This document shows, piece after piece, positions 26,601 to 28,269 of a stretch of 64,000 bases of DNA. How positions within the stretch are numbered: position 1 is the stretch's first letter; each line of letters opens with the position of its first letter. The notes below the pieces were generated by a model, which was given only the letters and a program-made list of their open reading frames with translations, ran no database searches and was not told where the DNA came from. The position numbers were made by a program, and so were the translations under genes. Origin of the DNA: the human T2T-CHM13v2.0 reference genome, Homo sapiens; assembly GCA_009914755.4 (NCBI GenBank), contig CP068257.2, positions 23,008,001-23,072,000 of the forward strand, written 5' to 3'.

Positions 26601-27099
26601 GGTTCTTTACACTCAAGTTTCTCATTAGGTGAAAAAATGAAGATATTCACCTGTGTATGTAGTGGGGTTTGCACTACCGGGAGAAAATTTGAAATTATGA
26701 GACCTGGAGTTTATCTAGGGAAGCTGGCACATTGGCCTGTCCTCACTTCTCAAGAAAGAAGGACAAAGACCTTTGAACGAATCATCTCTGTGAGGGAAAA
26801 GGATAATCCCTGGGTTTAATTAATCTCATAATATAAACAAATGTCTCCAAAAAAGACTGGGAAGACATCTATGGGTTTATTGCTTTAGAATATGATATCA
26901 GGAGCTCCAGGATTCTCATAGGCAGAATCCATGGGGATCTTTGGCTCAATGTTAATCTGTATATGCATAGAATAAAACTATGTGGCAATGAAGGAAATAC
27001 AGAAATACCATAAACTGAAGATCCTCAGAGTTCACACTTTGGTAGATATTTGACTTTTTCCAGGCAGAGGAGAGAGAACATTTAGAATAAATGGGACAG

Positions 27100-28152
27100 G
27101 CCAGGATTGGTGGCTTATGCCTGTAACACCAGCAATTTGAGAGACCAAGGAGGGTGGATTGCTTGAGACGAAGAGTTTGAGACCAACCGGGGCAACATGG
27201 TGAAATCCCTTCTCTATCAAAAATACAAAAATCATGCAAATCAAAACCACAGTGAGATACCATCTCACACCAGTTAGAATGGCAATCATTAAAAAGTCAG
27301 GAAACAACAGGTGCTGGAGAGGATGTGGAGAAATAGGAACACTTTTACACTGTTGGTGGGACTGTAAACTAGTTCAACCATTGTGGAAGTCAGTGTGGTG
27401 ATTCCTCAGGGATCTAGAACTAGAAATACCATTTGACCCAGCCATCCCATTACTGGGTATATACCCAAAGGATTATAAATCATGCTGCTATAAAGACACA
27501 TGCACACGTATGTTTACTGCGGCACTATTCACAATAGCAAAGACTTGGAACCAACCCAAATGTCCATCAATGATAGACTGGATTAAGAAAATGTGGCACA
27601 TATACACCATGGAATACTATGCAGCCATAAAAAAGGATGAGTTCATGTCCTTTTTAAGGGCATGGATGAAACTGGAAATCATCATTCTCAGCAAACTATC
27701 CCAAGGACAAAAACCAAACACCTCATGTTCTCACTCATAGGTGGGAATTGAACAATGAGAACACATGGACACAGGAAGGGGAACATCACACTCCGGGGAC
27801 TGTTGTGGGGTGGGGGGAGGGGCAAGGGATAGCATTTGGAGATATACCTAATGCTAAATGACAAGTTAATGGGTGCAGCACACCAACATGGCACATGTAT
27901 ACATATGTAACAAACCTGCACATTGTGCACATGTACCCTAAAACTTAAAGTGTAATAATAATAAAAAAAAAATACAAAAATCAGCCAGGTGTGGCTGCAT
28001 TTGCTTGTGGTCCCAGCTACTTGGGAGGCTGAGGCAGGAGGATCGCTTGAGTCTGGGAGGTTGAGGCTGTAATGAGCCATGATCACACCATTGTACTCCA
28101 GCCTAGATGGCATAGCAAGACCCTGTCTCAAAAGAAAAAGAAAAAGAAGAAA
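27100..28152 (+). mobile_element. Alu (sense) interrupted by an L1 insertion, with Alu-level TSD
   Basis: The left part ggccaggattggtggcttatgcctgtaacaccagc…ggcaacatggtgaaatcccttctctatcaaaaatacaaaaatc runs to 27233. The right part agccaggtgtggctgcatttgcttgtggtcccagctacttgggaggctgaggcagg…gcaagaccctgtctcaaaag(a)n starts at 27983. The TSD tagaataaatgggacag sits at 27083-27099 and 28154-28170. Confidence 0.85.
27234..27968 (+). mobile_element. 5'-truncated L1 (L1PA-like): ORF2 C-terminus, 3' UTR and poly-A, inserted into the Alu tail-proximal region
   Basis: Translates as …[55 protein letters not shown]…[90 protein letters not shown]…. It is followed by the 3' UTR (…ttaatgggtgcagcacaccaacatggcacatgtatacatatgtaacaaacctgcacattgtgcacatgtaccctaaaacttaaagtgtaataataat) and an A9 tail. 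The TSD aaaatacaaaaatc sits at 27220-27233 and 27969-27982. Confidence 0.9.
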
Positions 28153-28269
28153 TTAGAATAAATGGGACAGTCAATAAAGAGGCTAAAGGCATCTAGTCTT
28201 AATAATAAAGTTAAACAATTGCTAGAATTAAGGCCACTTTATAGTTGTTCTAAGTAAAAATCAAGCTGC

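What the first reader, a model, noticed from the sequence alone, without database searches (positions are those of the whole stretch)
27081..28170. Nested retrotransposition: 5'-truncated L1 3' end inserted inside an Alu, both target-site duplications intact
An Alu (27100-28152) is flanked by an exact 17-bp direct repeat tagaataaatgggacag (27083-27099 and 28154-28170). Inside it, a 735-bp L1 fragment (ORF2 C-terminus, 3' UTR and A9 tail, 27234-27968) is flanked by its own 14-bp direct repeat aaaatacaaaaatc (27220-27233 and 27969-27982). This TSD is derived from the Alu middle A-rich linker region, a preferred L1 endonuclease target (TT|AAAA-like). Two layers of TSD are readable by eye and give an unambiguous relative chronology: Alu first, L1 later. 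The inner L1 has L1PA-type 3' UTR motifs, suggesting a relatively recent primate insertion.
Basis: seen in the sequence. Interest (0 to 1): 0.5.

Follow-up and report, generated by a model that had tools for sequence, protein, structure and literature searches.

The report
L1 fragment nested inside old Alu
An old Alu repeat was later split by the insertion of a short tail-end piece of an L1 element, with both sets of insertion scars intact; this is a clean example of a very common and well-understood event in primate genomes.

Summary

- **Outer repeat:** an exact 18-nt direct repeat (27082-27099 / 28153-28170) abuts an Alu on both sides.
- **Inner repeat:** an exact 16-nt direct repeat (27219-27234 / 27968-27983) abuts a ~734-nt L1 3' end. 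This repeat is the Alu's own A-rich linker.
- **Reconstitution:** removing the L1 and one linker copy restores a 282-nt Alu. It aligns colinearly with nine uninterrupted Alus in the window and without gaps to an AluJ consensus written from memory.
- **Alu identity:** Rfam's 7SL model hits both arms on the + strand.
- **L1 identity:** the insert translates, after masking one stop and repairing one 1-nt deletion, to residues 1104-1275 of human L1 ORF2p (E about 1e-110). It continues through the 3' UTR and AATAAA into an A-run.
- **Nick site:** the inferred first nick is 5'-TTTTT/GA-3' at the left-arm/linker boundary, a published nesting hotspot.
- **Relative age:** the Alu is about 20% diverged with 22 of 23 CpGs lost. 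The L1 is about 5% from L1HS.

Small corrections: the repeats are 18 and 16 nt, not 17 and 14, and the unambiguous A-tail is A5, not A9. The L1 subfamily and the species distribution could not be tested here. This is already known and of low interest. One minor oddity is a perfect outer repeat around so old an Alu.

The parts
27082..27099 (+). Outer target-site duplication, 5' copy (TTAGAATAAATGGGACAG)
   Evidence: Exact 18-nt repeat that abuts the Alu 5' end. The final G could equally be the first G of the Alu.
27100..27218 (+). Alu left monomer, very decayed, with the J-type signature GGATTGCTTGAG
   Evidence: Rfam Metazoa_SRP hit at 27100-27216, + strand, E 0.0069. It aligns with other Alus in the window and with a consensus written from memory.
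27219..27234 (+). Alu A-rich linker, which is also the inner target-site duplication, 5' copy (AAAAATACAAAAATCA)
   Evidence: Exact 16-nt repeat. It aligns to the linker of uninterrupted Alus.
27234..27751 (+). 5'-truncated L1: ORF2 codons 1104-1275 plus the stop codon. It is disabled by an in-frame TGA at 27399-27401 and by a 1-nt deletion in the A-run 27709-27713.
   Evidence: Translation. With the stop masked and the frame repaired, phmmer against human L1 ORF2p 8sxt_A covers residues 1104-1275 at E 9.6e-111, with 157/172 identical. The deletion is seen.
27752..27967 (+). L1 3' UTR, with AATAAA at 27960 and an A-tail (A-run 27963-27972, whose last 5 A's are shared with the duplication)
   Evidence: Colinear with other L1 3' ends in the window: 48220-48944(-) at 87.6% and 18110-18228(-) at 95.8%.
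27968..27983 (+). Inner target-site duplication, 3' copy (second copy of the Alu linker)
   Evidence: Exact 16-nt repeat.
27984..28129 (+). Alu right monomer
   Evidence: Rfam Metazoa_SRP hit at 27984-28131, + strand, 48.4 bits, E 6.2e-11. Alignments.
28130..28152 (+). Alu 3' A-rich tail (AAAAGAAAAAGAAAAAGAAGAAA)
   Evidence: Read directly from the sequence. It lies between the end of the Alu body and the outer repeat.
28153..28170 (+). Outer target-site duplication, 3' copy
   Evidence: Exact 18-nt repeat.

Best explanation
Two successive L1-driven target-primed reverse transcription events occurred at one site.

**First event.** An Alu RNA of an old, J-type subfamily was inserted in the + orientation. 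This duplicated 18 nt of the target, TTAGAATAAATGGGACAG.

**Second event.** Much later an L1 of the primate L1PA lineage inserted in the same orientation into that Alu.
- The T-run primed reverse transcription on the L1 poly(A).
- Reverse transcription, or joining of the 5' end, stopped about 0.73 kb from the 3' end, at ORF2 codon 1104.
- The second nick fell 15-16 nt downstream, at the linker/right-arm boundary, so the whole linker was duplicated.

**Outcome.** The fragment was dead on arrival. It has no promoter, no ORF1 and only 172 ORF2 codons, and it has since picked up a stop codon and a frameshift.

**Shown versus inferred.** The anatomy, the two duplications, the identity of both elements and the colinearity of the reconstituted Alu are shown. 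The nick positions, the mechanism and the ages are inferred. My rough age estimate is on the order of 10-25 My for the L1 and several tens of My for the Alu.
For: - Exact boundary-abutting repeats of 18 and 16 nt, far above chance.
- The reconstituted Alu aligns end to end with uninterrupted Alus in the window and in a 10-sequence MAFFT alignment with no gap at the excision junction.
- It aligns without gaps over 282 columns to AluJ consensus sequences written from memory.
- The 7SL covariance model hits both arms on the + strand.
- The insert equals ORF2p residues 1104-1275 of solved human L1 ORF2p structures.
- It is colinear with other L1 3' ends in the window.
- It carries AATAAA and an A-run immediately before the 3' repeat.
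- The bottom-strand sequence at the inner site is TTTTT/GA. This is the same left-arm/linker position that Levy et al. describe as a suboptimal L1 endonuclease site (TTTT|AG in the consensus), with 15-16 nt between the two nicks (PMC2836564).
- The two Alu arms are equally diverged, 21.2% and 19.7%, as expected for one element.
- The host is far more diverged than the guest: 20% with 22/23 CpGs lost, against about 4.7%.
Against: - No orthologous empty or filled site could be obtained, so the order and dates rest on structure and divergence only.
- The outer nick site implied by the 18-nt repeat (bottom strand 5'-TCTAA/AT-3') is not a canonical L1 endonuclease site. A TTCT/AA site lies 2 nt inside it.
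- A perfect 18/18 outer repeat is unexpected for so old an Alu. A crude estimate gives P about 0.009. Most other, younger Alus in the window lack an exact flanking repeat.
- The consensus sequences used for the divergence figures were recalled from memory, not taken from a database.
Confidence: 0.93

Rival explanations
1. The Alu with the L1 already inside it was copied to this site as one unit, by retrotransposition of a composite transcript or by a small duplication. On this reading the outer repeat is younger than the inner one.
For: The outer 18-nt repeat is perfect although the Alu is about 20% diverged, with a crude P of about 0.009. Other, younger Alus in the window mostly lack exact flanking repeats.
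Against: - The unit starts exactly at the Alu 5' end, which implies a Pol III transcript.
- The L1 insert carries T4 and T5 runs on the + strand (27343-27346, 27651-27655). By general knowledge these terminate Pol III.
- No second copy of the junctions was seen anywhere searched.
Confidence: 0.02
2. The left and right Alu pieces are two unrelated Alu fragments, for example a free left monomer and a separate right part. They happen to flank an L1 insertion or were brought together by recombination.
For: None specific. Alu-rich regions do contain partial Alus, for example 13021-13128, 20471-20580 and 30088-30147.
Against: - The 16-nt linker is duplicated exactly at both L1 ends.
- Removing one copy gives a gapless 282-nt Alu.
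- Both arms lie on the same strand and have the same divergence.
- An exact 18-nt repeat brackets the pair.
Confidence: 0.01
3. The L1 piece entered by endonuclease-independent capture at a DNA break in the Alu, not by canonical endonuclease-initiated TPRT.
For: The fragment is short and heavily 5'-truncated. The unambiguous A-tail is only 5 nt.
Against: By general knowledge of L1 biology, endonuclease-independent insertions typically lack target-site duplications, are often 3'-truncated and come with target deletions. Here there is a 15-16 nt duplication, an intact 3' end with AATAAA and an A-run, a T-rich nick site (TTTTT/GA) and no loss of Alu sequence.
Confidence: 0.02
4. The structure is an artefact of assembly or sequencing, with repeat-induced misjoining of reads.
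For: Repeats do cause misassemblies. A public metagenome contig (L001) is misjoined exactly in this Alu's A-rich tail.
Against: A misjoin would not produce two nested, exact, boundary-precise duplications together with a perfectly reconstitutable Alu. The 3' flank, outer repeat and Alu tail are reproduced 100% over 284 nt in an independent data set.
Confidence: 0.01

Closest known systems
Nested ('transposition in transposition') retroelement insertions in primate genomes
   Same: A younger element interrupts an older one. The host halves are contiguous in consensus coordinates and overlap by the target-site duplication. Such events give relative chronology. About 300,000 exact nested insertions were catalogued in human, about 124,000 of them with recognised TSDs longer than 3 bp (PMC2836564). 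The TinT method builds Alu chronologies from them (PMC3014933).
   Different: Nothing material. This is one unusually well-preserved instance, with both duplications exact.
Alu linker insertion hotspot (Levy, Schwartz and Ast 2010; Abrusan et al. 2008)
   Same: The insertion is in sense orientation and uses the A-rich linker. The first nick lies at the left-arm/linker boundary on the antisense strand (TTTT|AG in the consensus, TTTTT/GA in this copy). The second nick lies 15-16 nt downstream, at the linker/right-arm boundary.
   Different: The published hotspot analysis is about Alu-into-Alu insertions. Here the guest is a 5'-truncated L1, and the full linker appears as a readable duplication instead of being hidden in the guest's poly(A).
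5'-truncated L1PA insertions (human LINE-1 and its solved ORF2p structures such as 8sxt)
   Same: ORF2 C-terminal segment (residues 1104-1275, 157/172 identical), 3' UTR, AATAAA, A-tail, a 15-16 nt TSD and a T-rich nick site.
   Different: It is older than L1HS. It carries the GACAAG/TTAATGGG, AACAAACC and CACATTG forms in the 3' UTR, and K, M and G at ORF2p positions 1237, 1241 and 1261. The subfamily was not assigned.
AluJ subfamilies (oldest dimeric Alus)
   Same: Dimeric 7SL-derived structure, linker, A-rich tail and TSD. J-type signatures are GGATYGCTTGAG in the left arm and GAGGCTG..GAGCCATGATC in the right arm. It is closest to the AluJb/Jo consensus from memory (20% against 23-25% for S and Y).
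   Different: The subfamily call rests on consensus sequences recalled from memory. The left arm has the S-like CATGGTGAAA. The perfect TSD is atypical for the age of the element.

Membership tests
Alu (dimeric 7SL-derived SINE) | Two 7SL-derived monomers in tandem on one strand | tested here: met
   Rfam RF00017 hits at 27100-27216 (E 0.0069) and 27984-28131 (E 6.2e-11). Both are on the + strand and both span model positions 1-299 with the central domain skipped. Both are below Rfam's gathering score, as expected for decayed Alus.
Alu (dimeric 7SL-derived SINE) | A-rich linker (A5TACA5-6) between the monomers and a total body of about 282 nt, colinear with other Alus | tested here: met
   After removal of the L1 and one repeat copy, the element aligns end to end with 9 uninterrupted Alus in the window. 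It also aligns without gaps over 282 columns to a consensus written from memory.
Alu (dimeric 7SL-derived SINE) | 3' A-rich tail followed by a target-site duplication that also precedes the 5' end | tested here: met
   Tail at 28130-28152. Exact 18-nt repeat at 27082-27099 and 28153-28170.
Alu (dimeric 7SL-derived SINE) | Canonical L1 endonuclease nick site (TTTT/AA-like) at the TSD boundary | tested here: inconclusive
   The bottom strand at the outer boundary reads 5'-TCTAA/AT-3'. A TTCT/AA site lies 2 nt inside the repeat.
AluJ subfamily | Diagnostic positions of the Dfam/Repbase consensus | not testable with these tools
   No repeat library is available. Consensus sequences from memory give 20.2-20.6% divergence to Jb/Jo, against 23.0% to Sx and 25.0% to Y. 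This is a lead only.
LINE-1 (L1PA lineage), 5'-truncated copy | Homology to L1 ORF2p | tested here: met
   A 172-aa conceptual translation, with the stop masked and the 1-nt frameshift repaired, matches residues 1104-1275 of human L1 ORF2p 8sxt_A at E 9.6e-111. Pfam gave no family for this segment.
LINE-1 (L1PA lineage), 5'-truncated copy | L1 3' UTR, polyadenylation signal and A-tail at the 3' end | tested here: met
   Colinear with other L1 3' ends in the window. AATAAA at 27960 and A-run at 27963-27972.
LINE-1 (L1PA lineage), 5'-truncated copy | Target-site duplication of about 7-20 nt and a T-rich endonuclease nick site | tested here: met
   15-16 nt exact duplication. Bottom strand reads 5'-TTTTT/GA-3'.
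LINE-1 (L1PA lineage), 5'-truncated copy | Subfamily (L1PA2-L1PA8) diagnostic positions | not testable with these tools
   There is only a 4.7% mismatch to an L1HS 3' end recalled from memory. The one primer paper checked has no primers annotated for the 3' UTR; all are in the 5' UTR, ORF1 or ORF2.
Nested TE insertion | Host halves contiguous in consensus coordinates and overlapping by the guest's TSD, with the host older than the guest | tested here: met
   for contiguity. for divergence: about 20% for the host against about 5% or less for the guest.
Nested TE insertion | Orthologous pre-insertion (empty) allele in an outgroup species | not testable with these tools
   No primate genomes are available. 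Exact-protein look-ups found nothing. Metagenome scans found nothing or only a chimeric contig covering the 3' flank.

The most novel reading that the evidence does not exclude
The outer duplication may be much younger than the Alu's divergence suggests. There are two ways this could happen. An already decayed AluJ copy could have been retrotransposed late. Or the Alu-plus-L1 composite could have been mobilised or duplicated as a unit. That would be a rare case of an old, mutated SINE, or a SINE carrying LINE cargo, being re-mobilised. The only support is the perfect 18/18 outer repeat (crude P about 0.009).
Probability: 0.03. Interest if true: 0.25.

Novelty: already known. Interest (0 to 1): 0.06.

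Why it matters
It matters little beyond annotation. Nested retroelement insertions number in the hundreds of thousands in the human genome, and they are already used systematically to order transposon activity (PMC2836564, PMC3014933). This copy is a tidy teaching example. Both duplications are exact, the Alu linker was used as the L1 target, and the two nick sites are 15-16 nt apart as the published model predicts. If the L1 proves to be lineage-specific among apes, the site could serve as one more presence/absence phylogenetic marker, which is also routine.

Tried and rejected
- **Exact-protein look-ups.** I queried four locus-specific ORFs that span the junctions or the mutated ORF2 end, hoping to find the same locus in other assemblies. 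Nothing was on record.
- **First metagenome scan.** A 32-nt left-arm/linker pattern that would match both the filled and the empty allele gave no match.
- **Second metagenome scan.** The 3' junction/flank pattern gave one 1,415-nt contig (L001). Its last 284 nt are 100% identical to 28133-28416. It is fused within the Alu A-rich tail to AT-rich phage-like DNA, so it is an assembly chimera and says nothing about an empty site.
- **Pfam on the ORF2 C-terminal segment.** No family was found. The PDB sequence search was decisive instead.
- **First translation attempt.** It used the wrong frame and was corrected.
- **Search for older repeats under the Alu.** Self-BLAST of 24000-27081 and 28171-30087 against the window found no repeated sequence. 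Without a repeat library this cannot exclude ancient repeats.
- **L1 subfamily assignment from the literature.** The primer paper covers only the 5' UTR, ORF1 and ORF2, so no usable 3' diagnostic positions were obtained.
- **Rfam miRNA hits in the right arm.** The mir-1268 and mir-3135 hits are far below their gathering scores. I take them as reflecting Alu-derived sequence, not genes.

Full report

Yes.

- **Outer repeat.** The repeat finder reports an exact 18-nt direct repeat, TTAGAATAAATGGGACAG, at 27082-27099 and 28153-28170. The pattern has only these two occurrences in the window even with two mismatches allowed, against 0.02 expected from shuffles.
- **Inner repeat.** There is an exact 16-nt direct repeat, AAAAATACAAAAATCA, at 27219-27234 and 27968-27983. 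At one mismatch or fewer the pattern occurs four times, against 0.05 expected. The other two occurrences (44683-44698, 51642-51657) are the single linkers of other, uninterrupted Alus.
- **Ambiguous ends.** The leading A's of the 3' copy are continuous with the L1 A-run. The last A is also the A of the ATG that begins the L1 fragment. The true duplication is therefore 14-16 nt.
- **A-tail.** The A-run 27963-27972 has ten A's, of which five also belong to the repeat.

**2. What are the pieces?**

*Alu.*
- Joining 27100-27234 to 27984-28152 gives a 304-nt sequence. It aligns as a single HSP with full-length Alus elsewhere in the window, for example 4488-4191(-) at 77% and 51525-51821(+) at 74%.
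- In a 10-sequence MAFFT alignment with nine uninterrupted Alus from the window, the reconstituted element is colinear. It needs no gap at the excision junction.
- Against AluJo and AluJb consensus sequences that I wrote from memory (a lead, not a database result), the 282-nt body aligns with zero gaps and 20.2-20.6% mismatch. The figures are 23.0% to AluSx and 25.0% to AluY.
- Rfam's metazoan 7SL model hits both arms on the + strand: 27100-27216 (E 0.0069) and 27984-28131 (E 6.2e-11). This is the expected signature of a dimeric 7SL-derived SINE.
- A 23-nt A-rich tail (28130-28152) precedes the 3' copy of the outer repeat.

*L1.*
- Frame 1 from 27234 reads [21 protein letters not shown]... It has one in-frame TGA (27399-27401) and a frameshift near the end.
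- With the stop masked and the frame repaired, the 172 residues match residues 1104-1275, the very C-terminus, of solved human L1 ORF2p (8sxt_A). The E-value is 9.6e-111 and 157/172 residues are identical.
- The ORF2 stop lies at 27749-27751. It is followed by about 210 nt that are colinear with other L1 3' ends in the window: 48220-48944(-) at 87.6% over 728 columns, and 18110-18228(-) at 95.8%.
- AATAAA lies at 27960, followed by the A-run.
- Against an L1HS 3' end written from memory, the fragment shows 4.7% mismatch and a single 1-nt deletion in the A-run 27709-27713.
- The insert is therefore an L1 copy truncated at ORF2 codon 1104, roughly 0.73 kb from the 3' end. It lies in the same orientation as the Alu, with no 5' inversion and no 3' transduction.

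**3. Mechanism**

The structure is what two rounds of L1-mediated target-primed reverse transcription would leave.

*Inner event.*
- The pre-insertion Alu read ...CTCTATC|AAAAATACAAAAATC(A)|GCCAGG....
- The bottom strand at the left boundary is 5'-TTTTT/GA-3', a one-base variant of the TTTT/AA consensus.
- This is the left-arm/linker position that Levy et al. identify in the Alu consensus as a suboptimal endonuclease site (TTTT|AG). They place the second nick 15-16 nt away, at the linker/right-arm boundary (PMC2836564). That is exactly the geometry seen here.
- At the 5' junction there is at most 1 nt of microhomology, the shared A.

*Outer event.*
- The 18-nt repeat implies a nick at 5'-TCTAA/AT-3', which is not canonical.
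- A good TTCT/AA site lies 2 nt inside the repeat. I leave this unresolved.

*Shown versus inferred.* The nick positions and the mechanism are inferred from the anatomy and from established L1 biology. They are not demonstrated.

**4. Chronology and age**

- **Order.** Nesting gives the order: Alu first, L1 second.
- **Alu divergence.** It is about 20% from consensus. 22 of 23 consensus CpGs are lost. Mismatch is 9.9% at A/T sites and 17.0% at non-CpG G/C sites. The two arms are equally diverged, 21.2% and 19.7%.
- **L1 divergence.** It is 4.7% or less from L1HS. Several of those differences look like subfamily-level states. A neighbouring L1PA fragment at 18110-18228 has GACGAG and CACGTTG where the focal copy has the CpG-decayed GACAAG and CACATTG.
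- **L1 age.** I estimate, by inference only, that the L1 belongs to a subfamily somewhat older than L1PA2 and is on the order of 10-25 My old. The L1PA3-L1PA6 interval is quoted as 7.6-26.8 My in PMC4083085.
- **Limit.** No subfamily could be assigned with the tools available.

**5. A small oddity**

- With the substitution levels measured in the Alu body, the chance that both 18-nt outer copies stayed unchanged is about 0.009.
- Of nine other full-length Alus in the window, all less diverged, only one has an exact abutting repeat of 14 nt or more.
- The alternatives are late retrotransposition of an already decayed Alu, or mobilisation of the composite. They are not excluded but have no positive support. 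The T4 and T5 runs inside the L1 insert (27343-27346, 27651-27655) argue against a Pol III transcript of the composite.

**6. Attempts to find the orthologous or empty site**

- Exact-product look-ups for four locus-specific ORFs returned nothing.
- A metagenome scan with a left-arm/linker pattern returned nothing.
- A scan with the 3' junction returned one contig, L001. Its terminal 284 nt are 100% identical to 28133-28416.
- Upstream of the Alu tail, L001 continues into AT-rich sequence. That sequence has an ORF weakly similar to a phage tail-fibre family (phrog_1491, E 4.3e-5).
- L001 is therefore an assembly chimera joined in the low-complexity tail. It gives no information on the history of the site. 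It does suggest that the window comes from a common contaminant genome, presumably human (inference).

**7. Comparison with what is known, and verdict**

- Nested retroelement insertions are catalogued by the hundred thousand in the human genome (about 300,000 exact events; PMC2836564).
- They are the basis of the TinT chronology method (PMC3014933).
- The Alu linker is a documented nesting hotspot.
- All defining features of an Alu, of a 5'-truncated L1 insertion and of a nested insertion that could be tested here were met.
- The exceptions are the outer nick site (inconclusive), and the subfamily calls and the empty orthologous allele (neither testable here).
- The finding is correct, well observed and ordinary: already known, low interest.

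Noticed in passing
L001:1-1415 (ERZ1023334 NODE-5460), matching window 28133-28416: A public metagenome contig is a chimera. 284 nt are 100% identical to this window's Alu tail, outer repeat and 3' flank. They are fused, within the A-rich Alu tail, to AT-rich phage-like sequence, which has an ORF with a weak hit to tail-fibre family phrog_1491 (E 4.3e-5). This looks like host-DNA contamination misassembled at low coverage (1.3x).
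   Followed up: partly
window 27082-27099 / 28153-28170: The outer duplication is perfect (18/18) although the Alu it flanks is about 20% diverged with 22/23 CpGs lost. A crude probability is about 0.009. Other, younger Alus in the window mostly lack exact flanking repeats. This is probably ascertainment, but it is also compatible with a late copy of a decayed source.
   Followed up: partly
window 12268-12574: An Alu on the + strand has an uninterrupted A26 tail (12549-12574). It is the only Rfam 7SL hit in the window that reaches the gathering score (12403-12550, 70.1 bits). It may be one of the younger Alus in the window, although its identity to the AluSx consensus (89.6%) is not higher than that of several others. 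An inverted partial Alu with a (TTTCTTTTTTTC)n tract lies just downstream, at about 12973-13128.
   Followed up: no
window 18110-18228 (-): A very short (about 119 nt) L1PA 3'-end fragment is 95.8% identical to the end of the focal L1. It still has the CpG forms GACGAG and CACGTTG, which have decayed in the focal copy. It ends in an AATAAAATAAAATAAAAAAA tail.
   Followed up: partly
window 48220-48944 (-) and 59042-59591 (-): There are two further L1 3' regions on the minus strand, 87.6% and 71.4% identical to the focal fragment. These are older L1 layers in the same AT-rich (35% GC) window. Their full extents were not mapped.
   Followed up: no
window 3620-5985 (-): A cluster of four Alu copies or fragments lies on the minus strand within 2.4 kb. 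Possible nesting among them was not examined.
   Followed up: no
window 21122-21325; 40569-40679; 16891-16961; 45558-45703; 58569-58646: Several low-complexity arrays are present: a complex (TGAATTCATATACA)n / 40-42-nt array, a 59-nt unit repeated 1.9 times, and long (AT)n, (TA)n/(AC)n and (AG)39 microsatellites.
   Followed up: no
window 27982-28033 (+) and 28050-28109 (-): The Alu right arm gives sub-threshold Rfam hits to the mir-1268 and mir-3135 families (33 and 26.9 bits, against gathering scores of 83 and 80). I read these as reflecting Alu-like sequence, not as evidence of miRNA genes here.
   Followed up: no
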